64,000 nt of DNA from a virus (taxonomy: Duplodnaviria > Caudoviricetes). The stretch's first letter is position 1; each line of letters begins with the position of its first letter. This document shows, one piece after another, positions 23,122 through 64,000 of this stretch. The translations under genes and the position numbers were made by a program. The DNA is taken from positions 3,083 to 67,082 of the IMG/VR virus record IMGVR_UViG_2918748958_000001. One strand, 5' to 3'. The notes under the pieces are model-generated. The model had not been told where the DNA came from. It saw only the letters and a program-made list of their open reading frames with translations, and did no database searches.

Positions 23122-23147
23122 GGGCTACCCCTTCGTGTGTCGCACCG

Positions 23148-36566: not shown

Positions 36567-36619
36567 CAATGACTGGGTCCCCTCCCTCACGTATGCTTCG
36601 CAAAACTTCGGAAGCTGGA

Positions 36620-37399
36620 ATGGCGCACTACTTGCGAGACAAGAAAATTGGATCGCTCACGATTACGGAAGAGGACGTTCGAGAGCTGTGCCAAGTATTT
36701 TTGCGGAGACTGGTTGTAAACAGCGTGGCTGCCGGCTCCGATCAAAATGAGATCAAGGTTTCTCATTTTGTTATCCGCTTTGACAATCGCGGCTACAAGG
36801 TCTATACGACCGAGGACGTTATTACGTATTGGCGTCAGGCCTCGAAGATCGAAAGAATTATTTTCGCCACGGAATCAATTCAAAGCCTCAATTCCAATAG
36901 AGCGAACGGCTCGTTCGTCGAGCTCAAATTGGACCTCACTGACGAGAACTGCTGGATGGTCTCTTCGTCAGATGACAGAGACTGGATGGACGGCTCTTTC
37001 AACGCAGTGGAAGAGCATCTAGCAAAGTGTAAAAACCGGCACGGCCTAGTTAGAACTCCTTGGACACCATTTATTGTCTACGTGGTTGGCCAGGGAATAA
37101 TGCTCACCTTCAGCCTCTGGCTCGCAGTGAAGATCGCCCCACGATTGGCCGTTGACAACCCGGTCATCGTTGGGTTCATTATTCTCTTCTTTCTCTACCT
37201 GCCGATATGGAATTTCATCCACGGTCAGACCATCCGTCTCATCGGACAGGCTTTCCCGCCTGTCAAATTTCACAAGCAAAGTAGAAGCCTGCATTGGTTT
37301 GGGCAGGCGCTCGTCGGCGCATTGGTAATCGCCGCTCTTGGGCAAGCCGGTAGCTGGTTCCTCAGCCTGCTTGGGCAACTGATCAAAACCACCCCTTAG
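36620..37399 (+). CDS. antisense accessory protein with C-terminal TM helices
   Basis: Lower GC; soluble N-terminal domain plus about three hydrophobic segments. Confidence 0.8.
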   Translation: MAHYLRDKKIGSLTITEEDVRELCQVFLRRLVVNSVAAGSDQNEIKVSHFVIRFDNRGYKVYTTEDVITYWRQASKIERIIFATESIQSLNSNRANGSFVELKLDLTDENCWMVSSSDDRDWMDGSFNAVEEHLAKCKNRHGLVRTPWTPFIVYVVGQGIMLTFSLWLAVKIAPRLAVDNPVIVGFIILFFLYLPIWNFIHGQTIRLIGQAFPPVKFHKQSRSLHWFGQALVGALVIAALGQAGSWFLSLLGQLIKTTP

Positions 37400-37494: not shown

Positions 37495-38346
37495 ATGTCG
37501 CAGAATTACTGCATGGACCAGAATCAGCTGCCTTCCGAAAAGCTCGTGCCCGACCGGATCCACGCCGCCGTTCAAGCCAACAAGGCTGCTCTTCAGGGCC
37601 TGCTCAACGCCGTCAAAATTAGCCTCGAAACTCTCCGTCCTGAGTTGGAATATCTCTGGGACTCATGGGTGAAGATGGCGCCTTCGCTTGCCGATCTAAT
37701 AGCTGCTTGGGACAAGATGCCAGGCGAGTACCGCGATGCGTTGATGGTCATTGCAAACGAGGGCTGGTATCTCGATCCCGACGAGATGGCATTTGACGAA
37801 CCGGCCAGAATCGCGCGCGCTTACTCTGAAGGCCGTCACCAGGAGGCCGAAGACCAGTTGTTGGCGCACTACCGAGCGCGGCTCGCGGGCATTGAGGATG
37901 CCCTCATTCAGCAGTTCCCCGCTCGCGCCGCGGTTCTGAGGCAAGCATTCGAAGCCCACCGCCAAGGGTTGTACTTCACATCGGTGCCTACGCTGTTCAC
38001 GCAAATTGACGGCGTGTGCTTGGATATTTCAACCCACCACCTCTTCATGAAGGGTAGAGGCGAGACGAGAACCGGCGTCGCACCCTATGTTGACCAGATC
38101 GCCGACAACGCACTCTCACAGGCAATGCTGGCGCCGTTCCTCGAGCCTCACGCCGTCCTGCTCAGTGAGAAACAGAGGGCGCCAGGCTTTTCGAAGTTAA
38201 ATCGCCACATGGTGCTTCACGGCGAATCGTTCGACTACGGCACGGAGGCAAATAGCCTCCGCGCTGTTTCGTTGCTGTTCTATGCAGCTCGCGCACTCAA
38301 CGAGTTCGGCACCACGCCGAGAGCAGCAGCGACGCCCTCCCCCTAG
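37495..38346 (+). CDS. HEPN-like protein (candidate RNase)
   Basis: C-terminal LNRHMVLHG (Rx4H) followed by YGTEANSL; helical. Confidence 0.7.
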   Translation: MSQNYCMDQNQLPSEKLVPDRIHAAVQANKAALQGLLNAVKISLETLRPELEYLWDSWVKMAPSLADLIAAWDKMPGEYRDALMVIANEGWYLDPDEMAFDEPARIARAYSEGRHQEAEDQLLAHYRARLAGIEDALIQQFPARAAVLRQAFEAHRQGLYFTSVPTLFTQIDGVCLDISTHHLFMKGRGETRTGVAPYVDQIADNALSQAMLAPFLEPHAVLLSEKQRAPGFSKLNRHMVLHGESFDYGTEANSLRAVSLLFYAARALNEFGTTPRAAATPSP

Positions 38347-38426: not shown

Positions 38427-38740
38427 CGGAATGGTGGGGGCGTCAGCTCTTGACTGCCCGCTCTGTCTCTCACTTGTCCCTTGTTCTATCGGCCCGGTGT
38501 TTTTCCCCATAGTGACGCACACTCGGACTTCACAGCTTCAAAAACGGTGAGCACGCTGAATTGCAGGTTGAATTGCATACTGATCTCCAGGTTGAAAGTT
38601 GCAGAAAGGCCAACAAACACGCAGAGGAACAGCAACGGGCCGTTTACAAGGTCTTGGAGCGAGGTAAACGCGGCGAACGCACTTGCCAAGTCATCGATCT
38701 GGAAACAGTATAGTTTGAAACTAAGGCTAGACTTCTAAAG

Positions 38741-41062: not shown

Positions 41063-41071
41063 TGGGTGCTC

Positions 41072-42832
41072 CTACGCGCGCCAGTCGGAGACGGGCGCTT
41101 CGACGTAGGCGGTGTTCTGGGTGAGGTTGGCCAGCAGGCCAAGCTCCTTGGCCTGGGCCCACTGGCGCAGCGCGTCCGCGCCTTCAGTGCAGCCGTTGCT
41201 CTTGTCGGGCTGGTCGATGAAGCGGTTCTCAGAGGTGCTGTACTTCTTCTTGTAGCCTTGGATGCGCTCGATGCCCTGCTTCGTGCCATCGAGGTCGAAG
41301 AAGGCGCCCTTGATGTGCTTGCGCACGCTGTAGATGCCGGTCATCAGCTCGGTGACGCGCGGCACGATGAAGAAGGCCTGGCCAGGCATCAGAAGCTGCA
41401 GTTGCTCTCGGGTGCTGCGGTTGTAGTCGCCGAGACGCTTGTGGTCGGCGTCATGGGGCAGGAAGTGCCCACCGTAGAGGTAGCCTCGCTCTTGGAGGTG
41501 GCGCGCATAGTGGCGCAGGTCCTCCTCGTGCTCCTCGTAGTAGCCGATGAAGCGGTCTTCGTTGCGCAGCATCTGCATGAACCAGATCGCCGTGCCGTCG
41601 CTGTTCCCGATGTCCCAGAACGTGAACACGGGCAGGTCCAGCAAGGGCACCTGGCAAATGGCGCCACGCTTGCGCAGCAGCACCATGTCCTTCGCGTAGT
41701 AGTGGCCGGCGGTGGACTGCTGGAATGCCTCCTCGGGGGTCGAGGGGTACTCCTGCCACATGCGCTCCTCTTTGCCGGAGAAGTCGTTGCGCAGCTTTTC
41801 GACGTACCAGGCGCGCTGACCCGGGTCGATCTTGGCGTCGATCTTCGTTTCGAGCTCGTCGAAGTAGTCGTGCTGCTCGGGCGTGACGGGCACGCCAACC
41901 GGGTCGATCGAATAGGCCGGGTCCTGCCACCATGCGTAGAAGTGGAAGCGGTACTGGCTGGGCGTCAGCTTGCGCGCGCCCGCCACCAGCGCCTGCGCCC
42001 GCTGGCAGATCTCGTAGAACTCGCCCTCCGTACCTTCGGCAGTGCTCTCGATGACCAGGATGCCAGACAGCGGCACGGCCTGGAACGAGCCGGTCACCAC
42101 TTCGTTGGCCTTCGCCGGGAACTTGGCACAGATCTTCCCGAACTCGGAGACGTGCAGGCGGTGGATGGTGCCGCCACGCACGCTGGTGGCCACGCGGATG
42201 CTGCTGTTGTTGTGGCCGAACAGCAGCTCCTTCGTGCTGGCGCGGGCGAGCGGGAAGCGCTGGCGGATCTCCTCGGGCAAGTGGTCGTAGGCGAACACAA
42301 CCTTGTCTCGGAAGATGGCCTCGGCCGTCTCCCGGTCCTGGGCGATCATGCCGCAGCGCTGGTTCCCGTTGAACAGGGCGTGGTCGAGCCAGAGGATGGC
42401 AATCAGCGTAGTAAAGCCGAGCTGCCGGGCCTTGAGGATGGCGTTGCGGTGCCAGAGCCGCGTGATGAAGCGCCGCTGGGCCCGGTTGGGCTTGAACGGC
42501 ATGACGAAGGAGTCGCCTTCGTCGATGATCTCGCCCGCAGCGTTCTTTACCGGCTCGCCCTTGACGATGATCTGGTACAAGCAGCCGCTGAACAGGCGCC
42601 ATTCTGGGTCGCGCAGGCAGCGCTCGAGCTCCGCCGCATTGGTTGGCAGGATCTCAGCGTGCTTGGCGATGTGCGGCCCGCGCTTGGGCCGGCGCCGGTT
42701 GTCCCAGCGATGCCCGAGCTGCACGTCGACCGCGCGGCCGGCATCTACATCCAGCGCGGTGTCGTCTTCATCGAGCGTGCCGGCGTCGGCCAGGCTCGAG
42801 GCCTGCTTAGCCTGGACGGCCATCGTCGACAT
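41072..42832 (-). CDS. terL: terminase large subunit
   Basis: Walker A-like ILKARQLGFTT, LHVSEFG, IESTAEG and the nuclease FWDIG motif. The start could alternatively be 42823. Confidence 0.95.
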   Translation of the reverse strand: MSTMAVQAKQASSLADAGTLDEDDTALDVDAGRAVDVQLGHRWDNRRRPKRGPHIAKHAEILPTNAAELERCLRDPEWRLFSGCLYQIIVKGEPVKNAAGEIIDEGDSFVMPFKPNRAQRRFITRLWHRNAILKARQLGFTTLIAILWLDHALFNGNQRCGMIAQDRETAEAIFRDKVVFAYDHLPEEIRQRFPLARASTKELLFGHNNSSIRVATSVRGGTIHRLHVSEFGKICAKFPAKANEVVTGSFQAVPLSGILVIESTAEGTEGEFYEICQRAQALVAGARKLTPSQYRFHFYAWWQDPAYSIDPVGVPVTPEQHDYFDELETKIDAKIDPGQRAWYVEKLRNDFSGKEERMWQEYPSTPEEAFQQSTAGHYYAKDMVLLRKRGAICQVPLLDLPVFTFWDIGNSDGTAIWFMQMLRNEDRFIGYYEEHEEDLRHYARHLQERGYLYGGHFLPHDADHKRLGDYNRSTREQLQLLMPGQAFFIVPRVTELMTGIYSVRKHIKGAFFDLDGTKQGIERIQGYKKKYSTSENRFIDQPDKSNGCTEGADALRQWAQAKELGLLANLTQNTAYVEAPVSDWRA

Positions 42833-43772
42833 CCTCCCGCGGCATCAGGCTGTTGGGGCCCGTCGGGGCTTCTGGCGTCTCCGGGTCGTTCGCGACGGGC
42901 CGGAACCCATTGCCGTTTCCGTTGGCGATGCTGTGCAGCAGCGCGGCCAGCGGGTCGGTCTTCTGCTGGTTGTCCTTCTCGTAGAGGCCGAGGTGCTTGA
43001 ACAGCTTCTCCATCGCCGCGCCTTTGTCGTGCATGGCGATCTCGATGCCGTACTTCGTCATCTTGGCGCCGGCGTAGAGAGCGCGCGCCGAGCCCGAGAG
43101 GTGGCGCGTGTCGGCCAGCACGGTGCGCGGGTTGCCGTCACCGCCGCAGTCAGGGCATGCAGGGTGTGGCGGTTTGAGCGGATCGAAGCCGATGCCACCC
43201 TTCTCGTCGAACTCGGCCAGGTTGCCGCCCTTGAGGGCGAACTGCTCGCGGTCGTGGTTGAACTCGCCGATGGTGCGCTGGAACTTGAAGCCCTCGCCCC
43301 AGCAATGCCGGCAGCAGCCGACCTTCACCTGCACCAGCTCGCGCGGATCGGCGAAGACGATGTTCCACGCCTCCAGCACCACGCGATCCGCCTCGATGTG
43401 GGTGCGCTGCTGCTGGCGCAATCGGGCTTCAGCGATGGCAACCTGGATGTACGGTTTTGACAGGTTCTCCGACGCCATCTGCCGCGCCGTGTCCGGGCTG
43501 TAGCCGGCGCGGATGGCAGCCTGCGTGCCGTTCAGGTCCACGAGGTACTCGTCGACGAAGCGCTGCTGGAGGTCGGTGAGGCCGAGCTGCGGCGGCTCTG
43601 CGGGAGCGGTAGGTATTGGCCGCGCCTGGCGAGCTGGCTTCTTCGGCTTGGCCTTGACTGGGGGCGCCTTCTTGCGCGCGGGCGCCACCGCAACCTTCTT
43701 CGGGGCGGCGGCGGGCTTGGTGGTCTTCTTCGGTGCGAGTGCTGGCTTCTTTGCCGGCTTGCGAGTTGCCAT
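42807..43772 (-). CDS. terS: terminase small subunit
   Basis: QQRFVDEYLVDLNGTQAAIRAGYS signature; also a CRHC..CPDC Zn-binding insert. Confidence 0.9.
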   Translation of the reverse strand: MATRKPAKKPALAPKKTTKPAAAPKKVAVAPARKKAPPVKAKPKKPARQARPIPTAPAEPPQLGLTDLQQRFVDEYLVDLNGTQAAIRAGYSPDTARQMASENLSKPYIQVAIAEARLRQQQRTHIEADRVVLEAWNIVFADPRELVQVKVGCCRHCWGEGFKFQRTIGEFNHDREQFALKGGNLAEFDEKGGIGFDPLKPPHPACPDCGGDGNPRTVLADTRHLSGSARALYAGAKMTKYGIEIAMHDKGAAMEKLFKHLGLYEKDNQQKTDPLAALLHSIANGNGNGFRPVANDPETPEAPTGPNSLMPREDVDDGRPG

Positions 43773-52241: not shown

Positions 52242-52979
52242 ATGAAGGACATTGACGAAATCAGGCGAGACAACATGCGGCTCATCGAACTCGAGCGCGG
52301 CGGCCCATCAGAAGCGGCGAAAGCTATCGGCATGTCCCTCTCGCAGTTCACCAACCTGCGGGACGGCGCCAAGGACTCGCAGACCGGCCGCCCACGCGGG
52401 ATGCGCAAGGAGACGGCCCGGCGGATCGAGGTAGCCGCAGAAAAGCCCGAAGGCTGGTTGGACACCGACCATTCCGCAGAATCCGCCCCGCGGTCTCCAG
52501 CTGCCGCACCCCACGCCACCGGCGACGAGTTCGTGATCGTTCAGTACGATGTCAGCGGCGGCATGGACACCCGCGGCAAGTTAATCCTCGATGGCGAAGT
52601 CGCAGGAGAAATTAAGAGCTGGCGAGTGAACCGCGAGTGGCTGCGTATGCATGTGCCCGTCTACACCAGCCTGCAGAACCTGTGCATCGTCACCGGATTC
52701 GGACCATCCATGAAACCGATGTTCAACCCCGGCGATCCGCTGTTGGTGGATCGGGGCGTGAAACTTGTTGACCACGAGGGCGTGTACTTCTTTCGGATCG
52801 GCGACCAAGGGTTCATCAAGATCATCCAGCGGGTTCCGAACTTCGACAAGCCGGGCTTCGCGCTCCGCATCATCTCGAAGAACAAGGAAGACTTCCCCCC
52901 ATACGACATCTCGCCGACGAATCCCGATTTCCACGTTATCGGCAAAATCCTGACGGTGTGGAAGAGCGAGCAGTACTGA
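52242..52979 (+). CDS. cI: CI-like repressor, HTH plus S24 autopeptidase
   Basis: N-terminal HTH (..ARRIE..PEGWLD), GPSMKP Ser motif and FIK Lys motif. Confidence 0.9.
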   Translation: MKDIDEIRRDNMRLIELERGGPSEAAKAIGMSLSQFTNLRDGAKDSQTGRPRGMRKETARRIEVAAEKPEGWLDTDHSAESAPRSPAAAPHATGDEFVIVQYDVSGGMDTRGKLILDGEVAGEIKSWRVNREWLRMHVPVYTSLQNLCIVTGFGPSMKPMFNPGDPLLVDRGVKLVDHEGVYFFRIGDQGFIKIIQRVPNFDKPGFALRIISKNKEDFPPYDISPTNPDFHVIGKILTVWKSEQY

Positions 52980-53064: not shown

Positions 53065-53964
53065 TTGGGAAATGATCAAGCAGCTGGCACAGCACTTCCA
53101 GCAGAAAAAGAAATAGCCCCGCGTTCTGCAAACGACTCGGCGTTCGACCTGCTGCCGAAGCCGGTCAAGGTCTTGGCCCTGAACAAGGGCGCAGAGCAGG
53201 TGCGACGGAATCGCGAGGAAAGCAAGGGTGACGAGCTCTGGCTTGCGACGGCCTATGACGAGGAGGATCCGTCGACAGACGATGTCTCGATCTACCTTCG
53301 CATCGCGAACCCAATGCCGGTTGTTGCCGAGTTGCTGTGTGCTGTGCTCGGGCGATCGCTCGGGCTACCGGTACCGGAGCCCTATCTGGTGAAAATCGAT
53401 GCGGGTGCGTTGCCTAGCTCTCGGCTTCTGACGATTGACAGGCCTGCCCTCGCCTTCGCCAGTCGCGACGTGGGAGGAACGAGCTTCAGTCAGCTACTAC
53501 GTTCAGGCAGTCCAGGCGCCCAAGCGATGCTCATGAAGTGGGAGCACCTGATTCCAGTAGCAACTTTCGACGAATGGATGGCGAACCGGGACCGGAACCT
53601 CAGCAACATCATCTTCATGTCGAATGTCCTCTGGATCATTGACCACGCAGAGGCCTTCCACGGAAGCGCTCGCGGACTCTTCGGGCTCCCCGAGCTTGTC
53701 GGTGAATCCGCCAGCAACATACTTGCCGACATGCTCGTGAAATTGAACGCAGCGGCATGCGCAGCGCACCTCGAATCCGCTCAGACATGGTTGACCTCAA
53801 TGGCGGCCAGGGTGAGCATCCCAGATGCGGCCGCTTGTGCCGACATCGAGCAATGGCAAACACCCGAGCAGCAAGCCGAATTGATAGACTTCATCGCCCA
53901 AAGGCTTTCTCTCACTCACGCCCTCCTATGCAATCGTCTGGGCCACCCGCAACTGTCCACCTGA
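53065..53964 (+). CDS. HipA-like kinase
   Basis: VAELLCAVLGRSLGLPVP, FDEWMANRDRNLSN and IIDH kinase motifs. Start uncertain. Confidence 0.85.
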   Translation: MGNDQAAGTALPAEKEIAPRSANDSAFDLLPKPVKVLALNKGAEQVRRNREESKGDELWLATAYDEEDPSTDDVSIYLRIANPMPVVAELLCAVLGRSLGLPVPEPYLVKIDAGALPSSRLLTIDRPALAFASRDVGGTSFSQLLRSGSPGAQAMLMKWEHLIPVATFDEWMANRDRNLSNIIFMSNVLWIIDHAEAFHGSARGLFGLPELVGESASNILADMLVKLNAAACAAHLESAQTWLTSMAARVSIPDAAACADIEQWQTPEQQAELIDFIAQRLSLTHALLCNRLGHPQLST

Positions 53965-54833
53965 TCGAAGCCGTCACTGCCCGCAATGGTCGTGTAGAAG
54001 GCGTTCGTGCCGTCATCGAGTTCGCGCCAAAGTTGGTGTCGCTTGAACGCCTGTGTGCTGGCGTCGTTGTAAGGACGACTGATGGCGAAGTTATTGCTGG
54101 GTGCGCACTCGACAAGAGAAAGATTGAAAACGCCTTCGGCTTGGCCGGCAAGGCGATCTATGAAATCGCGCATGCGCTGTGCGCTTCGCTCGCGCAGCAT
54201 TGGCTTGGTGAAGGAGACCCTCAGACATGGATCCCCCCTTTCGAAGGCGCGAGTATTGCGCGCGTCAACGAGTTCACCGCACGCAGCGCCGAAGCAGCGA
54301 TTCAGCAAGGGCTCGAGTTGCACAGCACGCTCGGGACTTTGCTCGCCCACTACGAGATCGCGGAGCAGTCTCGCAACGTCAACATCGTCGAACGAGTGAA
54401 GACAGCTGTGAAGCGTGATGTAAATGCGAAGCACCTGACCACTCGGTTCAATCGGACATTGCCGCTGGGACGGGATGCTGCGCCCATGCGTGTCGACTTC
54501 CTTGGGCAGAACTTTGCATGCTATTTCCTCCAGGTCGTGCGCAGTGCGCGCTCAAGTGAGGTCAATGCGGAGCGCGCGCTTGGAAAGTTGTTCGAACTCC
54601 AAACCCTCAAGCGATTTATCGCAAAGCCCAAGAAGAGCTTGGGTCTGCTGGAAGAGGAACGGCCAAAGCATTTCGAATTGGTGATGATCGGCAGTCGGAC
54701 TGACGCAATCCAGCGGCGCATCGTCTACCAAGTCGAAGCCATGGCCGACAAGAGTCAGGTGGATACGCTGGTACTCGACAGTGCCATCGCCGCGGCGGAG
54801 CATGTGGCCCACAAAGAGCGCCTCGCCGCCTAA
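53928..54833 (+). CDS. DUF3037-like partner protein
   Basis: RAVIEFAPKLVSLERLCAGVV resembles the DUF3037 N-terminus; overlaps the kinase stop. Start uncertain. Confidence 0.65.
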   Translation: MQSSGPPATVHLIEAVTARNGRVEGVRAVIEFAPKLVSLERLCAGVVVRTTDGEVIAGCALDKRKIENAFGLAGKAIYEIAHALCASLAQHWLGEGDPQTWIPPFEGASIARVNEFTARSAEAAIQQGLELHSTLGTLLAHYEIAEQSRNVNIVERVKTAVKRDVNAKHLTTRFNRTLPLGRDAAPMRVDFLGQNFACYFLQVVRSARSSEVNAERALGKLFELQTLKRFIAKPKKSLGLLEEERPKHFELVMIGSRTDAIQRRIVYQVEAMADKSQVDTLVLDSAIAAAEHVAHKERLAA

Positions 54834-55196
54834 GAACGAGTTGGCCAAGAACATCGTGCCGAACTGTCTCTTCGCCCGCAAGTCGGTTGATCCCTCCGAA
54901 GTAGCGCGACTCCACGACGCTGTGTCAACGCTTTCGTCTGTTGTCGCTGTATGCCAAGTGCGTAGATCGTCGACCGCTGCGCCACCGCGCAAGTTGATCA
55001 CGAAACCGTGCGACAAGTCGCAGCGCTCAATCAACACGCCGATCTTTTCCTCTTGGCAGAATGCTTTCAGATGCCCTACCGCTGCCGCATTTTCTGGCTT
55101 CATGCAAATTCCTTGCCCGCGCCACGCGAGCCTTCCGACCTCATAGCGTAGACACCGCCCTCCCTTCAACGAACCCCTGCCGGGGGCACCGACATC

Positions 55197-55221
55197 AAGC
55201 CCGCCACGCGCGGGCTTTTTT
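55197..55221 (+). terminator. intrinsic terminator ending the cI-kinase-DUF3037 unit
   Basis: AAGCCCGC-5nt-GCGGGCTT followed by a T-run. Confidence 0.85.
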
Positions 55222-55260
55222 GTGTCCCGCAGCACTGAGCGGGAGCAGTATCGCAAAACT

Positions 55261-55304
55261 TTTTGCGTTTCGCTATTGACGTTGATTTTGCGTTTCGCTA
55301 AATT
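55261..55304 (+). promoter_or_regulatory. pL promoter with two OL operators
   Basis: TTGACG(55276)-N17-TAAATT, overlapped by two TTTTGCGTTTCGCTA copies that match the OR core. Confidence 0.8.
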
Positions 55305-55340
55305 ACTCCTCACGACCACTACAGGTCACCAGGAGCGCAA

Positions 55341-55541
55341 ATGCAAAGCAACCCCGGGCGAATGGCCCACGCGAAACCGGCAAGCACGCCGGCCCCCTGC
55401 CCCGAATTCAGCGAAGAACAACTGATCGCCTTCGACCGCGCCTACGCGGCCGCCAAGGACACCGGCGCGCTCGACCGCCTGCGCATCGCCGCCGCGGCAA
55501 ACATCGAGCTGTCGCACAACCGTTCGGCGAGGCTCGCATGA
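55341..55541 (+). CDS. first pL gene, hypothetical
   Basis: AGGAG RBS; 66 aa. Confidence 0.65.
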   Translation: MQSNPGRMAHAKPASTPAPCPEFSEEQLIAFDRAYAAAKDTGALDRLRIAAAANIELSHNRSARLA

Positions 55542-56410
55542 CGGCGATGCTGATCGCCCACGGGCTGGAGCTGCAGCGCCAGATCGCAGCCTTGCGCCAG
55601 CACTACGCCGAGGCGCGCCGCGCGCGCCATGCCGGCCCACTTCGGACGGTGCGCAGCATGAGCGCCGCAACCACCAATGGCCGCCCCATGCCCCCGGATC
55701 CCGGTCGCGTTCAAAGCGCAAAGCAGCGATTGGCGCAGACGGCCACGGGTATGCCGTTACTCGGCAGGCGCGTCGCGTCGCTCGCGCGCATCTTCGATCT
55801 GCTTCGGCAACGTATAGAGATAGACCAACAGGAAGTGCGTCAGGTGATGCATCTGCTCGGTCATCTCCTCAGTGGCGTCTTCATCTCCATGAAGCGCCTC
55901 GTTTCCGTCAAGGCGCAACTCATGGGCCCATTGCTGAATGTCCCTGGTGATGCGATGCTCGTTCGCGAGTTTGTCGATTCGCTTCTCGAGCTTCCAAGCC
56001 TCAACCTCGGGGGCAAACGCTTTGAGGGCCAACTCCATCGCACGCCTATACATCCCGCAGGCAGCATTCCACGATCGCCGACGCCGAGCCTCCGCGGCTT
56101 CTACATAAGTGCGCGCTATTTTCTCTGGGACATCTGCAGGGGCCTCCAACACATCGGCTTTCGGCCATTGCGTGAGAACCACCAAGGAAGCATGTTTCAT
56201 CAGATTGCCTTGGGTATCACCTGCGTTCCAAACCTGAGAACTTCGGTTGTGCATCCGCACAACAACCGGCAAGTGGCAGCTGTTGCAAGAGGCCGTCACC
56301 ACCCGCTCACGCGGCAGATCCGGCATCGCGTACTCACTACGCAACGTGAAAGCGACTTGCTGAGCCGCGCAGTGCGGGCAATCGAGCACCAGGGAATTCG
56401 CCATGTCTGA
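55538..56410 (+). other. coupled ORF spanning the antisense DUF4145 gene
   Basis: ATGA-coupled start; in codon register with 55757..56404; stop overlaps the next ATG. Confidence 0.4.
55757..56404 (-). CDS. DUF4145 (HEPN-like) protein with N-terminal Zn ribbon
   Basis: CPHC..CNSC; NAACGMYRRAMELAL..LEKRIDKL..WAHELRLDGNEALH. Confidence 0.85.
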   Translation of the reverse strand: MANSLVLDCPHCAAQQVAFTLRSEYAMPDLPRERVVTASCNSCHLPVVVRMHNRSSQVWNAGDTQGNLMKHASLVVLTQWPKADVLEAPADVPEKIARTYVEAAEARRRRSWNAACGMYRRAMELALKAFAPEVEAWKLEKRIDKLANEHRITRDIQQWAHELRLDGNEALHGDEDATEEMTEQMHHLTHFLLVYLYTLPKQIEDARERRDAPAE

Positions 56411-57917: not shown

Positions 57918-58849
57918 TCCTGCTGAACCATCCCCAGGGGAGCGAAGACTGGCTGCGCGCGCGCTGCGGCGTGGCCACCGCCTCCCGATTCGGCGAGGCG
58001 CGCGAGAAGGTCGGCGGCTTGACCGACCAGCAGCGCCTCTACGTTGAAGCCCTGCAGCTCGGCATGGCCGAGCCCGACGCACGCGCCAAGGCCGGCTACA
58101 AGCAGAAGCCCATGGCGGCCGCCATCGCCAAGGCGCTGAATGGCGAGCCCACCGAGGAGCCGGGCGCGGCCGCGATCAAGTACGCCTGGCTGGTTGCCAT
58201 CGAGACCATCAGTCGCGAGCCGCTCGATGACACCTTCGTCACGTACGCGATGCGCCGCGGCCGGGATCTCGAACCCAGGGCTCGAGTGGTCTACGAGACG
58301 CGCACGGGCGCGCTGGTCGAGGAGGTCAGCCTGATCCTGACCGATGACGAGCGGTTCGGCTATTCGTCCGACGGCCTGATCGACGACGACGGCATGGTCG
58401 AAATCAAATGTCCGCTCGCGTGCGACAAGCTGGGCCAGGTCTGGGCCAGCCCGGAAACCGCGCACCTCGAATACATCGACCAGATCAACGGCGGCCTCTG
58501 GATCACCGGGCGCCAGTGGTGCGACCTGGTGGTGTATTGCCCCTGGTTGGAGCCGGTCGGCAAGGACCTGTTCATCAAGCGCATCTATCGCAACGAAGAC
58601 GCCATCGCCGCTCTCGAAGCCGACCTGATCGGCTTCATGCGGCTGGTGGACGGCCACCTCGAGGTGCTGCGCACACCCACAAAGATGTCCGGCGCCCCCA
58701 AGGTCGCGCCGGCAGAGGTGCCCGCTGTCGCCGCTATGCGCGCCGCCGCTCCTGCGCCCGCCCCCGCCCCCGCACCCGCATCCCTCCACTTCTCCGAGCT
58801 CGCCGCGCCCGCGCGCGGCGGCAACGCTGTTGTCGACAACCCCTTTTGA
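57914..58849 (+). CDS. YqaJ/lambda-exonuclease-family protein
   Basis: QGSEDWLRARCGVATASRF, RGRDLEPRAR and SSDGLIDDDGMVEIKCP. Confidence 0.9.
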   Translation: MILLNHPQGSEDWLRARCGVATASRFGEAREKVGGLTDQQRLYVEALQLGMAEPDARAKAGYKQKPMAAAIAKALNGEPTEEPGAAAIKYAWLVAIETISREPLDDTFVTYAMRRGRDLEPRARVVYETRTGALVEEVSLILTDDERFGYSSDGLIDDDGMVEIKCPLACDKLGQVWASPETAHLEYIDQINGGLWITGRQWCDLVVYCPWLEPVGKDLFIKRIYRNEDAIAALEADLIGFMRLVDGHLEVLRTPTKMSGAPKVAPAEVPAVAAMRAAAPAPAPAPAPASLHFSELAAPARGGNAVVDNPF

Positions 58850-58857
58850 GAGGCCTT

Positions 58858-59955
58858 ATGTCCGAGGTATCCACCACCACCGCCAACGAAGTGGCCGTCC
58901 AGCCACTCACCATCGCGCAGGCAGCGCTGGCACTCTTCTCCCCGCTGGAGAAGGACGTTGAGACGCTCGCGGAGCGGCACCGCAACGTCGTTTTCGACTT
59001 GAGCACGCCGAAGGGTTTCAAGGCGGCCAAAGACGCACGGCTGGAGCTGCGCGAGTCCGGCCGGTTCGCAGTGCAGCGCCTGCGCGACAAGACGAAGGAC
59101 CAGCTCAACGACTGCAAGAAGGTCATCGAAGACGAGGCCACGCGCCTCATTGCCATCGTCTCGCCCGTCGAGACCTTCGTCGACGAACAGATCAAGGTGC
59201 ACGAGAAGAAGCTGGCCGACGAGAAGGCCGAGCGCGACCGCATCGAAGCCGAGCGCAAGCAGAAGCACTTGGACGCCATCGCCAAGATCGAGGCCTACGT
59301 GGCCATGGCCGAGGGGCTGCCCATTGAACGCATCGAAGCCGGGTTGGCCTACGTGCGGGACATCGACGTGAGTGCGGAGGTCTTCGCGGACTTCGCAGTG
59401 CGCGCCTCGGCACAGAAGGACGCGACTATCCGCGCGCTGGAAAAGATGATCGCCGAAGCGCGCGAGCGCGCCGCAGCAGAGGAGCTGCGCCTGGAGAACG
59501 AACGGCTGCAGGCCCAACTCGACGAACTGAAGCGCCAGCAGCCCGCCGCGGCGCCCGCAACAGAACCGACCGACGCGCCAGCCGCGCAGGACGAAGAGCA
59601 GCGCCAAGAGGCCGAGCCGGTGCGCCCGCGGCCGGCGTTGGCCAGCTACTCCGTGCGCCGCGCGCCGCACGCAGCGGTTGCTGCGCCGGCGCCGATCCAG
59701 CAGGCCCTGCCGGTTGCGCCAGCCGCCAACGAATCCGCCGACCATGGCGCGACCACGCTGCGCATCGGCGTCATCGCCGAGCGGCTCGGCTTCGCCTTGA
59801 CCGCCGAGCAGTTGCGCGGCCTGGGCATCGAGCCCGCCTCTCGTGAGCGCGGCGCCACGCTCTATCACGAGCACCAGTTCCCGCAGATCTGCGACGCCCT
59901 CGCGCGCCGTGCCGCCGAGGCCAAGGCCGCTCACATGCAGCCGCTGGCGGCGTGA
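58858..59955 (+). CDS. coiled-coil phage protein
   Basis: VFDLSTPKGFKAAKDARLELRE..; long coiled coil; follows the exonuclease. Confidence 0.75.
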   Translation: MSEVSTTTANEVAVQPLTIAQAALALFSPLEKDVETLAERHRNVVFDLSTPKGFKAAKDARLELRESGRFAVQRLRDKTKDQLNDCKKVIEDEATRLIAIVSPVETFVDEQIKVHEKKLADEKAERDRIEAERKQKHLDAIAKIEAYVAMAEGLPIERIEAGLAYVRDIDVSAEVFADFAVRASAQKDATIRALEKMIAEARERAAAEELRLENERLQAQLDELKRQQPAAAPATEPTDAPAAQDEEQRQEAEPVRPRPALASYSVRRAPHAAVAAPAPIQQALPVAPAANESADHGATTLRIGVIAERLGFALTAEQLRGLGIEPASRERGATLYHEHQFPQICDALARRAAEAKAAHMQPLAA

Positions 59956-59977: not shown

Positions 59978-60133
59978 ATGCCCAAGCCCTCTTCCGCCTC
60001 CACCGCAGAAATCGACGATGCTGAGCTCATCGCCATCGCGATGACGCCGGTGAAGTTGAGCCAGGTGGCCTTCATCGGCTACGTCGCCACCAGCAAGACC
60101 CTCGCCCCCATCGAGGAGGCGCATTCCGCATGA
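59978..60133 (+). CDS. small hypothetical protein
   Basis: AGGAG RBS; 51 aa. Confidence 0.55.
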   Translation: MPKPSSASTAEIDDAELIAIAMTPVKLSQVAFIGYVATSKTLAPIEEAHSA

Positions 60134-60174
60134 AGAGCGCCACCCTCGCCACGCCACGGGATTTCTCTCGTCGG

Positions 60175-61104
60175 CTATTGCCAAAGCCCCATCGCCGCCA
60201 CTTCGGCAAGGCGCCCTCGGTGATAGGCCATGTAGTGTCGTTGGCCGGCGCGGAGCGGTGCAGTGTGGAGCATGGGATCAAGGTTCCAGCTGCGCATCAA
60301 GCCATCCACACCCGGGCCGGCGGTGATCAACGACCCATCGTCTTCGAACGAGATCAGGAAGCGATCAAACAGCTTGTCGACATGCGGGGCCAGCAAAAAT
60401 CCATTCTCGCCGTCGAGCCGTTCTTCGTCAGTGCTCTTCGACCAGGGCTTAATGTGACTCGCGACGAGTACCCGCGGGTCGGAAGTATTAGAGACGCGAC
60501 AGGTGCGGGCAATCGCCGTAACCCGATCCCGAAAGATACCTTGTCCTTTGCGTGCCTCGACCAACTGCTTCTTGGTGGTCGCGGGGATGTTCGCGTTCAG
60601 CACTTGCTGCATCGCCGATGCGTCGTCGACCTCGTCCTGCACTTCCGGGTTACTGACCGAGATAAGGCCTATAAGCAATTGTCCGAGCTGCGGCGTGATA
60701 CCCGCGAGGTAGACGTTCATCGCGCCTTTTCCAGCGCTTGTCAGCGGCGAATGCCTTTCGGGCATCAAAGGCTGGAGTTGCGCAAACATAAGCAAAGGTT
60801 CGAAAGGTTGCGTCAGCAACTTCCAATCGATTGTTACGAGCCACCCATCGGCACCCCAGTTCGTCCCGGCTGCGCCATACGCGGGCTTGGGCGCATCCAC
60901 GTACGGAGCTCGGACCGCGCCGATGGCCCGAATGGCGCGGTCTGCATAGGAAAAGACCAAGTCGCCTGCGGCGACTCTCGTCAAGTTCGTGTACGTCTCG
61001 CGCTCATGGCCGTTCACGTCTGTGTGGGGACACCAGATGTAGCCGCCGCCGACTTCGTGCACGTGCGTGCCACCATGGTTCACCCACCAATAGGCTCTAG
61101 TCAT
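60175..61104 (-). CDS. EVE-HNH modification-dependent restriction endonuclease (VcaM4I-like)
   Basis: YWWVNH..EVGGGYIWCP..GDLVFSY..DGWLV (EVE-like) and RKGQGIFR..C..LVASHIKPW..RLDGENGFLLAPHVDKLFD (HNH). Confidence 0.85.
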   Translation of the reverse strand: MTRAYWWVNHGGTHVHEVGGGYIWCPHTDVNGHERETYTNLTRVAAGDLVFSYADRAIRAIGAVRAPYVDAPKPAYGAAGTNWGADGWLVTIDWKLLTQPFEPLLMFAQLQPLMPERHSPLTSAGKGAMNVYLAGITPQLGQLLIGLISVSNPEVQDEVDDASAMQQVLNANIPATTKKQLVEARKGQGIFRDRVTAIARTCRVSNTSDPRVLVASHIKPWSKSTDEERLDGENGFLLAPHVDKLFDRFLISFEDDGSLITAGPGVDGLMRSWNLDPMLHTAPLRAGQRHYMAYHRGRLAEVAAMGLWQ

Positions 61105-61128
61105 GCTGGGTCTTCGCCGACCTGCCGC

Positions 61129-61491
61129 TCAGACGAGCTGTTCGAGCGTTGGAGGAACGAACGTGAACCACTTACAGCCGTAGACGAGCTCTCGATCGCG
61201 ATCGATAGTGGCGACGCCCGTAGGAATCCCCGTGCCAGGGGTTCCTCGGTTTGTACCAACCACCACGGCCGTGAGGGGCGGCAAGCCGTGATCACCGCAA
61301 TAGCGCGCGACGAGGTCGAGCGTCTGCGAGAGTACCCCAGCCGCCTTGCGCCCGAACATTGCGTTCCCCAAACCTTCGTAGGTAATCGTCTGCCGATTTG
61401 CAGCACAGGAGATGAGGATCTGCCAAGCCTGAAGCGCGCGCTCCGGTCGAGTGGAAGTCGGATTGAACGACCGTGCTGTGTTTTCTGTCAT
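61129..61491 (-). CDS. stand-alone winged-helix protein
   Basis: RQTITYEGL..VLSQTLDLVARYCGDHGLPPLTAVVV..GTPGTG. Confidence 0.75.
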   Translation of the reverse strand: MTENTARSFNPTSTRPERALQAWQILISCAANRQTITYEGLGNAMFGRKAAGVLSQTLDLVARYCGDHGLPPLTAVVVGTNRGTPGTGIPTGVATIDRDRELVYGCKWFTFVPPTLEQLV

Positions 61492-61533
61492 CTCCTGCTC
61501 CTTCTTGCTAGTCCCGCGATACTACCGACAGTC

Positions 61534-61773
61534 TCAATCCTCCAGATCGTACTTACCCTGCAGGGTGCGGATGATGCGCGCGATGTCAGCGCGGTGTGCG
61601 CCCCGGTCGCTCACGACGCCCACGGTCCAGGTCGGGCCGCCCTCTTCTGCGCTAACCTCGACCACTCCGCCGTGGTGCACATCGGTGATCTGGCCGCGCA
61701 GGTCAGGTATTGCCTCGATGCGCTCGATCAGCATCTGTTGCAATTGTTCGGCGGTGCGAGTGGGCTTAGGCAA
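61534..61773 (-). CDS. small hypothetical protein
   Basis: 79 aa; GGAGG RBS. Confidence 0.7.
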   Translation of the reverse strand: MPKPTRTAEQLQQMLIERIEAIPDLRGQITDVHHGGVVEVSAEEGGPTWTVGVVSDRGAHRADIARIIRTLQGKYDLED

Positions 61774-61794
61774 AACCTCGACCTCCTTGCATCT

Positions 61795-62451
61795 TCACGT
61801 TCTGATGAACGAAGCCAAAGCTTGGCGCGCGTCTTTGACACGCACAAGTGCCTGTTCGAGGAATTGATCGATGGAGCCCAGTCGATCGACAACCCAGTCA
61901 CCATTTCTATCGTCCCTGCGCACAACAAAGCCGACGGCCAAAACGGCTTGACGCAGTCTGCTGCAGCCTACCGCCAGGTCCCCTGCGACTGCCGGAAGGA
62001 CGTGATGCAACGTCATCAGTTGATTTTCGGTCGGAAGGTCGAGGCTGCTCAGCAGTCCGTGAAAGCGCTTCGCATCTTCCAATGCATTCGCATTCCGAGT
62101 TCGCGCGATGTTCTTCCTACAACCTTCGAGGGTGCCAACGATCGGAGCAAGCATTGTGTGCAAAGTTATCGCGGTGATCGTCGCAGCAGCGTGCTCGCGC
62201 TCACGATCTTTCCGATGATCGCTTTGGCGCTGCCACATCGCAATGCCAATTGCAGCAAGTATCGCGACGATCGATCCAATCGCTTGCACCCAAGCCGGCG
62301 CATCAAGCCGAGCAATCATCGTTGCAAAAGCGACAAAGAACCACCGAATCGCCGCCCCCCCCGGAAAGATCGCGAGTGCGTGCACCAACAGCAGACATGT
62401 CAGCAGAACGAGACACGCCAAGGTGCCGACGGTTGTCAGTTTCTCTTTCAT
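61795..62451 (-). CDS. membrane protein
   Basis: N-terminal TM segments including WVQAIGSIVAILAAIGIA. Confidence 0.75.
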   Translation of the reverse strand: MKEKLTTVGTLACLVLLTCLLLVHALAIFPGGAAIRWFFVAFATMIARLDAPAWVQAIGSIVAILAAIGIAMWQRQSDHRKDREREHAAATITAITLHTMLAPIVGTLEGCRKNIARTRNANALEDAKRFHGLLSSLDLPTENQLMTLHHVLPAVAGDLAVGCSRLRQAVLAVGFVVRRDDRNGDWVVDRLGSIDQFLEQALVRVKDARQALASFIRT

Positions 62452-62477
62452 CTCTCACTCCATCCTGGGAGCGGATT

Positions 62478-62675
62478 GTGAACCTCCTCGACACCTCCAT
62501 CGACCGCAGCCGTGCCAAAGAGGCCCAGGCGGTGCAGATGCACGCCCAGCAGCTGGTCGACTATGCGCGCCAGCACAACTTGGTGGTGACCATCACCCTC
62601 GCGCCCCAGCCTCCGCTGGCCATGGGCAACTACGTGCCCATCATCGAGATCCGGGAGGCCCGCCATGGCGAGTGA
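62478..62675 (+). CDS. phage hypothetical protein
   Basis: GGGAG RBS with GTG start; LVVTITLAPQPPLAMGNY. Confidence 0.65.
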   Translation: MNLLDTSIDRSRAKEAQAVQMHAQQLVDYARQHNLVVTITLAPQPPLAMGNYVPIIEIREARHGE

Positions 62676-63449: not shown

Positions 63450-63605
63450 ATGACCGATGAATTCCGGGGCGACAGCGCCCACTTGCGCCGCACCATCAAC
63501 GTGCTGCTGGAGCTCGACGCAAAGGGCGCGCTCGCCCCGTACCTTGCGCGTCGGCTGCCCGAATCCACTGTTGTGCGACTCAAGCGACCGGAGGTGTCGG
63601 TATGA
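63450..63605 (+). CDS. small hypothetical protein
   Basis: 51 aa; coupled to the next gene. Confidence 0.45.
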   Translation: MTDEFRGDSAHLRRTINVLLELDAKGALAPYLARRLPESTVVRLKRPEVSV

Positions 63606-64000
63606 CAGCGCTTCTCCGTGAACTGCTGCAATGCAACCACAGCGACCCGAACCACCGACGCGCTGGCGCCGGTAAGTGGGTCACGGTGAACGTGCCAGCC
63701 GAGCTGTGGGCAAAGATTCAAGCCGCCACCGAACTGACTGAGCCCCGTGAATCCAGATCCTCGGTCCCGACGCAAAGGCCTCGCATGCCACCCGCCCAGA
63801 CCTTGCAGGCGGCTCTCATACCTGACGCACTCTTGCGCATCGACGTTGTGGAACATCTCACGGGCCTCGGCGAATCGACGATCCGCCGGAAGATGGCCGC
63901 AGCCAACTTCCCGCAGCCGATCAAGAACGGCGCACGATGCACGCGCTGGCGCGCCGGCGACGTGACGACCTGGCTGCGTGAACAAGGGGCTGCAGCGTAG
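63602..64000 (+). CDS. alpA: AlpA-family regulator/excisionase-like protein
   Basis: LLRIDVVEHLTGLGESTIRRKMAAANFPQPIKNGARCTRW. Confidence 0.85.
   Translation: MTALLRELLQCNHSDPNHRRAGAGKWVTVNVPAELWAKIQAATELTEPRESRSSVPTQRPRMPPAQTLQAALIPDALLRIDVVEHLTGLGESTIRRKMAAANFPQPIKNGARCTRWRAGDVTTWLREQGAAA

What the first reader, a model, noticed from the sequence alone, without database searches (positions are those of the whole stretch)
60130..62481. 783-codon 'translational bridge' running antisense through an entire four-gene defence insertion
Seen: the ORF starts by ATGA overlap with the upstream pL gene and ends by GTGA overlap with the next one. All four - strand genes (low ends 60175, 61129, 61534, 61795) differ from 60130 by multiples of 3, so 2.3 kb including three spacers avoids TTA/CTA/TCA in that register. 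Established: untranslated RNA invites Rho termination, and no N-like gene was recognised. Inference: selection keeps ribosomes on the pL transcript so antisense cargo is not polar on downstream genes, including alpA. Caveat: in-register shadow ORFs are common in GC-rich DNA (40421..43000 spans portal and terL).
Basis: partly seen in the sequence, partly recalled or inferred. Interest (0 to 1): 0.72.

Follow-up and report, generated by a model that had tools for sequence, protein, structure and literature searches.

The report
Stop-free bridge ORF across backward prophage genes
In this prophage, four real genes sit backwards inside the early operon, yet the operon strand stays free of stop codons across all of them, and relatives with other cargo do the same, so ribosomes probably need to read straight through to reach the excision genes.

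Summary
ORF 60130..62481 (+, 783 codons) starts by an ATGA overlap with the previous + gene. It ends by a GTGA overlap with the next one. It runs codon-aligned antisense through four real - strand genes that all share one frame.

It is not an ordinary GC-rich shadow ORF. The cargo has GC3 of only 0.60-0.77. About 11.6 TTA/CTA/TCA codons are expected and none is present (P about 1e-5).

The pattern recurs:
- A second bridge lies in this window (55538..56410).
- A 725-codon bridge lies in a Pseudacidovorax prophage.
- In-register open stretches of 375-808 codons lie in 16 of 31 related viral loci that carry different cargo.

Three lines of evidence point to selection on the frame:
- Cargo genes are about 4-5-fold depleted in these three codons (p=3e-12).
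- Neighbouring cargo genes are kept in one register, with spacers in multiples of 3 nt.
- The bridge start is phased onto the upstream stop codon.

The encoded peptide is unconstrained. Synonymous sites are saturated, and antisense identity is 34% against 65% for the HNH protein.

Best reading: openness, meaning translation itself, is selected. Rho anti-polarity is the likeliest reason but is untested. The closest analogue in print is ambigrammatic narnaviruses. I found no description for phages. This scan has flagged the same design in at least eight other genomes.

The parts
60130..62481 (+). Bridge ORF of 783 codons, codon-aligned antisense to four cargo genes and their spacers. The product looks meaningless (Arg 11.6%, Cys 3.7%, His 4.6%).
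   Evidence: No Pfam, PHROG or PADLOC hit.
60113..60119 (+). Shine-Dalgarno-like GAGGAGG, 10 nt before the bridge ATG and inside the upstream ORF.
   Evidence: Sequence read; context.
59978..60133 (+). 51-aa ORF that is the truncated N-terminal remnant of a 95-aa phage gene that is complete in relative L168. Its TGA overlaps the bridge ATG.
   Evidence: tblastn gives 67% identity over 43 aa to L168 9559-9846. The full-length form hits phrog_3292.
60175..61104 (-). g1: EVE-HNH modification-dependent (type IV) restriction endonuclease of the VcaM4I family. No TTA/CTA/TCA in 309 codons, GC3 0.71.
   Evidence: Pfam HNH_2; PADLOC HNH/REase; the g1 family alignment (A1) matches PDB 6yex, E=5e-107; PMC7897488.
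61129..61491 (-). g2: 120-aa protein of unknown function, with AAGGAG before its ATG.
   Evidence: A 38% homologue lies in Aeromonas locus L100. No family hit.
61534..61773 (-). g3: 79-aa protein (TTG start after AAGGAGG), the conserved anchor of the backward module in this phage family.
   Evidence: Homologues of 49-81% identity in L162-L171 and L174-L204. Codon-position differences are 0.24/0.18/0.46. The AlphaFold model has pLDDT 85 and no PDB fold match.
61795..62451 (-). g4: 218-aa membrane protein of the 'APAWVQAxGS' family. Its start codon lies 26 nt from the start of the next + gene.
   Evidence: Atlas clusters are all hypothetical proteins. A 48% homologue shows pos3 variability.
62478..62675 (+). 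Next operon gene (65 aa, GTG after GGGAG). Its N-terminus VNLLDTS is conserved as MNLLNTS and MQLLDTS at the same junction in L163 and L168. Its start overlaps the bridge stop.
63602..64000 (+). AlpA-family excision regulator at the end of the operon. The contig then continues with a 412-aa integrase-like gene at its other end.
   Evidence: Pfam Phage_AlpA, E=7e-9.
58408..59955 (+). Upstream operon gene (515 aa, phrog_16469), used to fetch 13 related phage loci.
55538..56410 (+). Second bridge ORF (290 codons) in the same operon. It starts by an ATGA overlap with conserved gene 55341..55541. Its first 30-46 residues are the remnant of a native + gene.
55757..56404 (-). Backward gene under the second bridge (DNA-binding protein, phrog_1305). 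No TTA/CTA/TCA in 215 codons at GC3 0.67, where 3.1 are expected. It is absent from the relatives.

Best explanation
ORF 60130..62481 is a product-neutral 'bridge' reading frame. The early (pL-like) operon runs on the + strand from about 55.3 kb through ERF, the exonuclease and a 515-aa gene to AlpA and the integrase. Four genes sit backwards inside it. Selection removes from these backward genes the three codons (TTA, CTA, TCA) that would read as stops on the operon strand. It also keeps all four genes and their spacers in one register, and it phases the frame so that it starts on the stop codon of the preceding operon gene and ends on the start codon of the next one.

The consequence (inferred) is that ribosomes arriving from upstream can re-initiate and translate the operon transcript across 2.3 kb of otherwise untranslatable antisense RNA. 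The peptide itself has no function. The most likely benefit (inferred, untested) is that a continuously translated transcript escapes Rho-dependent termination and polarity, so that the downstream genes, including alpA and int, are expressed after induction.

Shown here: the frame, its selective maintenance, its recurrence, and the lack of constraint on the product. Inferred: ribosome occupancy and the anti-Rho purpose.
For: 1. Codon avoidance. There are 0 antisense-stop codons in 726 cargo codons, against 11.6 expected at their GC3. HNH homologues at GC3 0.60-0.75 usually carry about 4-5 per gene, and only 3 of roughly 60 have none. Across 57 cargo genes of the family the rate is 0.28% per codon, against 0.96% in low-GC3 operon-strand genes of the same loci. 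The ratio to other A-ending codons is 0.051 against 0.199 (Fisher 2e-11). The GC3-adjusted rate ratio is 0.19-0.23, p=3e-12, with one representative per 60% cluster.

2. Register. Neighbours of g3 share its frame in about 29 of 37 cases. The spacers are 0, 3, 6, 9, 12, 21, 24, 27, 30, 33, 39 or 42 nt.

3. Recurrence over other cargo. There is a second bridge in this window. L081 has a 725-codon bridge with ATGA overlaps at both ends, leading to an alpA-like gene and int. L163 has 474 codons and L168 has 545. All 31 g3 loci are open over g3, and 16 of them have in-register open stretches of 375-808 codons. Relay ORFs take over where the register changes.

4. Phase. The bridge start overlaps the upstream stop in 19 of 25 loci, which is 12 of 18 junction classes, against about 16% expected. 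GAGGAGG lies 10 nt before ATG 60130.

5. The product is unconstrained. For HNH in the window against L081, amino-acid identity is 0.65, dS exceeds 3, and antisense identity is 0.34. Cargo codon position 3, which is bridge position 1, is the most variable.

6. Internal negative control. Low-GC3 genes that sit backwards in the late operon carry 4-6 stop-making codons each and are not bridged.
Against: Nothing here bears directly on Rho. The + strand RNA is only mildly C-rich (C 0.311, G 0.282).

About a quarter of cargo neighbours are out of register, and several loci need relays or show a few stops between my crude flank calls. In L168, L175, L184 and L197 no start codon lies near the upstream stop.

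Related loci are not fully independent. NTGA overlaps arise at most TGA stops by chance, so only their phase is informative. The backward genes of the late operon do without a bridge, so the rule is not general within this phage. An independent promoter after the cassette cannot be excluded (one search is uninformative).
Confidence: 0.6

Rival explanations
1. The frame is kept open by selection for translation, but for a reason other than Rho. One option is that trailing ribosomes push RNA polymerase through head-on collisions with polymerases transcribing the backward cargo. Others are that ribosomes protect the RNA from decay or from pairing with cargo mRNA and RNase III, or that the downstream gene depends on termination-reinitiation coupling.
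For: All the evidence for selected openness applies equally. The cargo start (62451) and the next operon start (62478) are only 26 nt apart, so the cargo promoter must fire into the operon head-on. The bridge ends exactly on the next gene's start in the window, L163 and L168.
Against: The next gene has its own GGGAG Shine-Dalgarno site. No data distinguish these options from Rho avoidance. Rho silencing of untranslated antisense RNA is the best-established of these mechanisms (general knowledge; reviews PMC12360218 and PMC11551753 were listed but not read in detail).
Confidence: 0.22
2. Ordinary shadow ORF: the open antisense frame is a by-product of codon bias in GC-rich DNA plus a chance shared register (a 'pseudo-ambigram').
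For: The contig is 63.5% GC and has many long in-register shadow ORFs, for example 40421..43000 with 859 codons and 15856..17868 with 670 codons. TTA is rare everywhere in this phage. Extreme GC3 bias is known to give pseudo-ambigrammatic genomes (PMC13262655). A few unrelated HNH homologues also have none of the three codons.
Against: Cargo GC3 is only 0.60-0.77, and 11.6 stop-making codons are expected. Other A-ending codons are used freely in the cargo (GCA 19, ACA 9, GGA 8, CGA 8). Same-phage genes of equal GC3 carry 3-12 each. The depletion is specific to backward cargo across about 30 loci (p=3e-12). Codon bias cannot explain the register, the spacers in multiples of 3 nt or the start phase.
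Confidence: 0.07
3. The 783-aa ORF encodes a functional protein: a true antisense overlapping gene created by overprinting.
For: It is a long ORF with ATG, a Shine-Dalgarno-like site and operon context. Antisense overlapping genes have been reported in bacteria (for example laoB, PMC5810103).
Against: It has no family hit. Its length and content differ completely between relatives, from 89 to 808 codons over different cargo. Its amino-acid identity between the window and L081 is 0.34, where the overlapped HNH keeps 0.65. The most variable codon position is the bridge's first position. Its composition is typical of antisense translation.
Confidence: 0.03

Closest known systems
Ambigrammatic narnaviruses (reverse ORF over the RdRp gene; PMC6884476, PMC8316113, PMC8155312)
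   Same: A codon-aligned (-0) reverse frame is kept free of stops over the whole sense ORF by avoiding UUA/CUA/UCA. The reverse product is reported not to behave as a functional protein, while its translation matters (titles and abstracts). Here the same three codons are avoided and the product is unconstrained.
   Different: Those are about 3-kb RNA viruses of eukaryotes with a single gene. Here a DNA prophage has an operon-strand frame that spans several unrelated backward genes plus their spacers. The frame is joined stop-to-start to its neighbours and serves, as inferred, read-through of a polycistronic bacterial mRNA.
Rho-dependent polarity and its classical phage solution, processive antitermination (lambda N/Q; P4 Psu, PMC11718236)
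   Same: The problem is the same: distal genes of a long phage operon, such as xis/int at the end of pL, must be reached despite Rho acting on untranslated RNA.
   Different: The known solutions modify RNA polymerase or inhibit Rho. Here the proposed solution is purely in the sequence: the antisense stretch is made translatable. No antiterminator was looked for or found here.
Shadow ORFs of GC-rich genomes and GC3-driven pseudo-ambigrams (PMC13262655)
   Same: The geometry is the same: an in-register antisense frame whose only possible stops come from TTA/CTA/TCA. True examples lie in this same window (40421..43000).
   Different: Those follow from GC3 of 0.85-0.9 and are not conserved beyond expectation. 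The cargo here has GC3 0.60-0.77, with 11.6 stops expected and none seen. The register, spacers and end junctions are also maintained.
Translationally coupled overlapping genes (ATGA/GTGA junctions; review PMC12548453)
   Same: There are four-base stop/start overlaps at both ends of the bridge and at most junctions of this operon.
   Different: Coupled genes normally both encode functional proteins. Here the middle member appears to be only a conduit.
Antisense overlapping protein genes of bacteria (for example laoB, PMC5810103)
   Same: An ORF lies antiparallel to annotated genes.
   Different: Those are short, have a fixed sequence and are claimed to encode proteins with phenotypes. The bridge is long, varies between relatives and is unconstrained.

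Membership tests
GC-rich shadow ORF (codon-bias by-product) | The sense genes have such high GC3 that TTA/CTA/TCA are expected to be nearly absent. | tested here: not met
   GC3 is 0.71, 0.67, 0.77 and 0.60. The expected count is 11.6 and the observed count is 0. Same-phage genes of similar GC3 carry 3-12.
GC-rich shadow ORF (codon-bias by-product) | Openness is not maintained beyond expectation in diverged homologues or with other neighbours. | tested here: not met
   The frame is open in L081 despite saturated synonymous sites. It is open over g3 in 31 of 31 loci, and 16 of them have in-register open stretches of 375-808 codons.
Ambigrammatic sequence (sense of DeRisi et al. 2019) | The codon-aligned reverse frame is stop-free over the whole sense ORF through avoidance of UUA/CUA/UCA. 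| tested here: met
Ambigrammatic sequence (sense of DeRisi et al. 2019) | The reverse-frame product is not under protein-level constraint. | tested here: met
   Antisense identity is 0.34 against 0.65. Cargo position 3, which is bridge position 1, is the most variable.
Ambigrammatic sequence (sense of DeRisi et al. 2019) | A single-gene RNA virus genome whose two strands are both RNA. | tested here: not met
   This is a 67-kb dsDNA prophage-type contig with structural, recombination and integration genes.
Ambigrammatic sequence (sense of DeRisi et al. 2019) | Translation of the reverse frame is needed for fitness. | not testable with these tools
   No runs could be obtained.
Antisense overlapping protein-coding gene | Purifying selection on, and conservation of, the antisense protein. 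| tested here: not met
Translationally coupled operon member | The start overlaps or abuts the upstream stop, the stop overlaps or abuts the downstream start, and a Shine-Dalgarno-like site lies upstream. | tested here: met
   ATGA at 60130, GTGA at 62478 and GAGGAGG at 60113-60119.
EVE-HNH modification-dependent restriction endonuclease (VcaM4I/TspA15I group), for g1 | A C-terminal HNH_2 nuclease domain, and full-length similarity including the N-terminal EVE/PUA sensor domain. | tested here: met
   Pfam PF13391 matches residues 202-254. The profile of the g1 family alignment (A1) matches PDB 6yex over positions 1-299 at E=5e-107. That entry's depositor name is 'HNH endonuclease'; I identify it as VcaM4I from PMC7897488 and from my own knowledge.
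EVE-HNH modification-dependent restriction endonuclease (VcaM4I/TspA15I group), for g1 | Cleavage of DNA that contains modified cytosine. | not testable with these tools
   This needs an enzyme assay.

The most novel reading that the evidence does not exclude
There may be a general design rule for temperate phages that lack, or do not rely on, processive antitermination. Under this rule, any gene carried backwards inside the early operon must be 'ambigrammatic': free of TTA/CTA/TCA, in register with its neighbours, and joined stop-to-start to the operon genes. Ribosomes then never leave the transcript on the way to the excision and integration genes. Translation as such would be the function of hundreds of codons of meaningless ORF. 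The rule would also constrain the codon usage and insertion phase of defence and exclusion cargo.
Probability: 0.5. Interest if true: 0.85.

Novelty: new variant of a known kind. Interest (0 to 1): 0.8.

Why it matters
If this is right, long 'meaningless' ORFs that annotation pipelines discard as shadows are functional parts of phage operons. They would be the first bacterial or phage counterpart of ambigrammatic RNA viruses, and here a concrete and testable purpose can be proposed.

It would show that the need to keep transcription and translation coupled can shape the synonymous codon choice, spacing and insertion phase of horizontally acquired defence genes.

It gives a purely sequence-based signal for operon continuity and for which strand is read through.

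It also offers a simple genetic handle on Rho polarity in vivo: stops that are synonymous for the cargo gene.

Tried and rejected
- DNA searches of the region against the phage collection, near and distant, found nothing.
- Single-protein scans of viral contigs with g1 and g4 found no relatives.
The DNA of the closest HNH homologues (87%, 87% and 80% identity; P0003-P0005) and of the 737-kb host contig holding the identical protein (P0002) could therefore not be examined.
- The promoter and terminator scan gave no more sites than shuffles.
- Pfam, PHROG and PADLOC gave nothing usable for g2, g3 and g4.
- The g3 model has no PDB fold match.
- The Atlas gave only weak leads for g4: DUF4760 at 0.78 and the retron Ec48 effector at 0.75.
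- Rejected: a - strand read-through polyprotein as the reason for the shared frame. The g3/g2 spacer has an in-frame TAG, and each gene has its own Shine-Dalgarno site and start codon.
- Rejected: treating ATGA/GTGA overlaps as rare in themselves. About 70% of TGA stops are preceded by A, G or T, so only the phase (1 in 3) is informative, and I counted junction classes rather than loci.
- An amino-acid-composition test alone could not separate the strands for the low-GC3 genes g3 and g4. Homology and codon-position variability were used instead.
- My gene calls in the related loci are crude (composition score and a greedy choice). Gap sizes are therefore upper bounds.
Full report
**The observation**

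The window is 64 kb of a single 67-kb virus-type contig with 63.5% GC. ORF 60130..62481 on the + strand is present exactly as described. It has 783 codons and an ATG start, and its only stop is the terminal one. The two other + frames of the same stretch hold 20 and 26 stops. ATG 60130 overlaps the TGA of the preceding + ORF. The terminal TGA overlaps GTG 62478 of the following + ORF. GAGGAGG lies 10 nt before the ATG.

On the - strand lie four ORFs: 60175..61104, 61129..61491, 61534..61773 and 61795..62451. All are in one frame, codon-aligned with the + ORF. Each is preceded by a Shine-Dalgarno-like site. Together they contain no TTA, CTA or TCA in 726 codons.

**Which strand codes**

The - strand genes are real.
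- g1 carries HNH_2 and has more than 2000 homologues. Its family alignment (A1) matches the solved EVE-HNH enzyme VcaM4I over the full length (PDB 6yex, E=5e-107; PMC7897488). It is a modification-dependent type IV restriction endonuclease.
- g3 (79 aa) is conserved in more than 40 loci, with start and stop in place. Its codon-position differences of 0.24/0.18/0.46 mark the - strand as coding.
- g4 is a membrane protein of a family that shares the motif APAWVQAxGS. Homologous pairs again vary most at - strand position 3.
- g2 has one 38% homologue.

The + ORF has no family hit, and its composition is that of an antisense translation.

**Context**

The + strand carries a CI-like repressor (52242..52979). 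After a conserved segment near 55.2-55.3 kb come small conserved genes, ERF, an exonuclease, a 515-aa gene, the cassette, further small genes and AlpA at the contig end. An integrase-like gene lies at the contig's other end.

**Is it chance or codon bias?**

Those lie opposite genes with GC3 0.87-0.91, where only 1-2 stop-making codons per gene are expected.

The cassette is different. Its GC3 is 0.60-0.77, and other A-ending codons are used freely (GCA 19, ACA 9, GGA 8, CGA 8).

Several comparisons give the expected number of stop-making codons:
- Other low-GC3 genes of the same phage carry 3-12 each. That predicts 8-12 for the cassette, with P(0) of 3e-4 when conditioned on Leu and Ser content, and 6e-3 under the most lenient overdispersed model.
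- Homologues of g1 at GC3 0.60-0.75 carry about 4-5, and only 3 of roughly 60 have none.
- A GC3-adjusted regression on operon-strand genes of the phage family predicts 11.6, giving P(0) about 9e-6.

On top of this come the shared register (chance 1/27) and 53 open non-cargo codons.

**Comparative evidence**

This is the decisive part. The 515-aa gene fetched 13 related phage loci, and a g3 alignment fetched 31 more.

(a) The in-register frame is open over g3 in every locus. In 16 of the 31 it forms an open stretch of 375-808 codons over g3 and its neighbours.

(b) The neighbours differ between loci. They include various WVQA-family membrane genes and assorted small genes, and in the window g1 and g2. 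Even so, about 29 of 37 share g3's frame, and the spacers are 0, 3, 6, 9, 12, 21, 24, 27, 30, 33, 39 or 42 nt.

(c) Where a backward gene is out of register, a second operon-strand ORF in that gene's register takes over at an overlapping stop/start. This is seen in L179, L174, L192, L175 and L185.

(d) The closest g1 relative with DNA at hand is a Pseudacidovorax prophage, L081 (65% identity). There g1 is followed by a WVQA gene. The opposite strand is a 725-codon ORF that starts by an ATGA overlap on an RdgC-like gene and ends by an ATGA overlap on a small ORF, which leads to an alpA-like gene and the integrase.

(e) The minimal form is L164. A conserved 67-aa operon gene is followed, by an ATGA overlap, by an 89-codon ORF lying exactly over g3. 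A GTGA overlap then leads into the alpA-like gene.

(f) The window itself holds a second case. ORF 55538..56410 starts by an ATGA overlap on conserved gene 55341..55541. It spans a backward DNA-binding-protein gene (phrog_1305, E=2e-44) that is absent from the relatives and has 0 stop-making codons where 3.1 are expected.

**Pooled statistics**

- The 57 cargo genes (8482 codons) contain 24 stop-making codons, mostly in out-of-register or doubtful calls. That is 0.28% per codon.
- Low-GC3 operon-strand genes of the same loci contain 146 in 15252 codons, or 0.96%.
- Relative to other A-ending codons the ratios are 0.051 and 0.199 (Fisher 2e-11).
- With GC3 as covariate and one representative per 60% cluster, the cargo rate ratio is 0.23 (p=3e-12).
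- 18 of 24 cargo genes with at least 150 codons have none, against 7 of 33 operon-strand genes.
- The bridge frame has a start codon overlapping the upstream gene's stop in 19 of 25 loci. That is 12 of 18 distinct junction classes. About 16% is expected once one allows that most TGA stops are preceded by A, G or T and that only the phase is informative.

**Is the product constrained?**

It is not. Between the window and L081 the HNH protein keeps 65% identity, while synonymous sites are saturated (pS 0.74, dS above 3). The antisense translation keeps only 34% identity. The stop-free state is therefore not inherited passively. It is maintained while the peptide drifts. In all cargo pairs the bridge's first codon position is the most variable. 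Bridge lengths range from 89 to 808 codons over different content. This excludes a conventional overlapping protein gene.

**Internal negative control**

Four low-GC3 genes sit backwards in the late (- strand) operon: 23094..23813, 36569..37399, 37495..38346 and 38481..38738. They carry 4-6 stop-making codons each. Only fragments of 50-144 codons cross them. A low-GC3 backward gene therefore does not automatically have an open antisense frame. In this phage the bridges are a property of the early operon.

**Mechanism**

Shown: selection acts on the openness, register and phasing of the operon-strand frame. Inferred: ribosomes finishing the upstream gene re-initiate at the overlapping ATG, helped by the GAGGAGG, translate across the backward cargo, and hand over to the next gene at the GTGA overlap.

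The most likely reason is escape from Rho-dependent termination of an otherwise untranslated 2.3-kb antisense stretch, so that alpA and int are reached. This rests on the established action of Rho on untranslated and antisense RNA, not on anything measured here. Alternatives that also make translation itself the function are:
- support of RNA polymerase against head-on collisions with cargo transcription, since the cargo and operon starts are 26 nt apart;
- protection of the RNA from decay or duplex formation;
- coupling-dependent initiation of the next gene.

No expression data could be obtained.

The cassette is not a single four-gene defence insertion. g3 plus one or two WVQA-family membrane genes form a conserved backward module of this phage family. 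g1 and g2 are additions seen only here. The ORF upstream of the bridge (59978..60133) is the truncated remnant of a 95-aa gene that is intact in L168, so a rearrangement boundary lies about 20 nt before the bridge ATG. The function of g3 is unknown: the model is confident but has no fold match. g4 has only weak leads to membrane effectors.

**Comparison with what is known**

The geometry and codon logic are those of ambigrammatic narnaviruses (PMC6884476). For those viruses, translation of the reverse frame is reported to matter while its product does not (PMC8316113 and PMC8155312).

The differences here are:
- the genome is DNA;
- the host is bacterial;
- the frame spans several unrelated genes and their spacers;
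- the ends are joined to neighbouring genes;
- a concrete purpose can be proposed.

Searches for 'ambigram' together with phage terms, and for antisense ORFs with Rho, polarity and coupling in phages, found no description of this design. The library is incomplete, so this is not proof of absence.

Within this scan, earlier AI notes report the same design in at least eight other genomes, among them Pseudovibrio, Janthinobacterium, Stenotrophomonas and Rhodobacteraceae prophages. I had reached the bridge reading before seeing them. They supplied the narnavirus comparison, which I then checked in the papers. I did not re-test their genomes.

**Verdict**

Selection for an open, phased, product-neutral frame is well supported, at about 0.85-0.9 in my estimate. 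Translation-through as the function, with Rho avoidance as the reason, is the best but untested explanation (0.6 for the package). The case is a new variant of known principles (ambigrammatic coding, translational coupling, Rho polarity) and does not appear to be in print for phages.

Noticed in passing
window 55538..56410 (+) over 55757..56404 (-): A second bridge ORF lies in the same operon. It has 290 codons and an ATGA overlap with conserved gene 55341..55541. Its first 30-46 residues match the N-terminus of a native + gene in the relatives. The rest runs antisense over a backward phrog_1305 DNA-binding-protein gene that is unique to this phage and free of TTA/CTA/TCA.
   Followed up: yes
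window 23094..23813, 36569..37399, 37495..38346, 38481..38738 (+ genes inside the - strand late operon): Backward low-GC3 genes in the late region carry 4-6 stop-making codons each and are not bridged. The bridges are therefore specific to the early operon of this phage. The reason is unexplained; late antitermination or separate transcription units are possibilities.
   Followed up: partly
window 59978..60133 (+): This 51-aa ORF is the truncated N-terminal part of a 95-aa phage gene that is intact in L168 (9559..9846, phrog_3292). It marks a rearrangement boundary about 20 nt before the bridge start.
   Followed up: partly
L081 5890..8067 (- strand of the locus; Pseudacidovorax sp. NFM-22): An independent prophage has the same architecture. 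A 725-codon bridge runs over an EVE-HNH gene and a WVQA membrane gene, with ATGA overlaps at both ends. It is followed by an 85-aa ORF, an alpA-like gene and an integrase, all coupled by overlaps.
   Followed up: yes
window 61795..62451; L163 9691..10242 and 10315..10962; L168 10100..10711 and 11003..11782; many of L174-L204: A family of roughly 185-260-aa membrane proteins shares the motif APAWVQAxGS..A..W and has variable C-terminal halves. Members often occur as two diverged copies flanking g3. There is no Pfam family. Weak Atlas leads point to DUF4760 and the retron Ec48 effector. It may be an exclusion or abortive-infection effector family.
   Followed up: partly
window 61534..61773 and homologues: g3 is a 79-aa protein conserved across at least two prophage backbones, always backwards just before the excision/integration end of the early operon. 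The AlphaFold model is confident (pLDDT 85), but there is no PDB fold match and no family.
   Followed up: partly
window about 55200..55340: A segment of about 120 nt upstream of gene 55341..55541 is conserved in the relatives in both reading directions (short tblastn hits on both strands). It looks like a regulatory region, possibly the early promoter and operator of the operon that contains both bridges.
   Followed up: no
It is an ordinary shadow ORF: the sense genes have GC3 0.87-0.91 and only 1-2 stop-making codons are expected per gene.
   Followed up: yes
L192 (flipped coordinates 4998..5252): The g3 homologue appears frameshifted at its N-terminus, and the upstream WVQA gene is out of register there. 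A relay ORF takes over at an overlapping TTGA.
   Followed up: partly
window 54552..55319 (-): This 255-aa - strand ORF has 6 stop-making codons and no family hit, and it overlaps the real + gene 53757..54833 by 280 nt. Whether it is a gene is unclear. If it is real, it lies upstream of the proposed operon start and is not bridged.
   Followed up: partly
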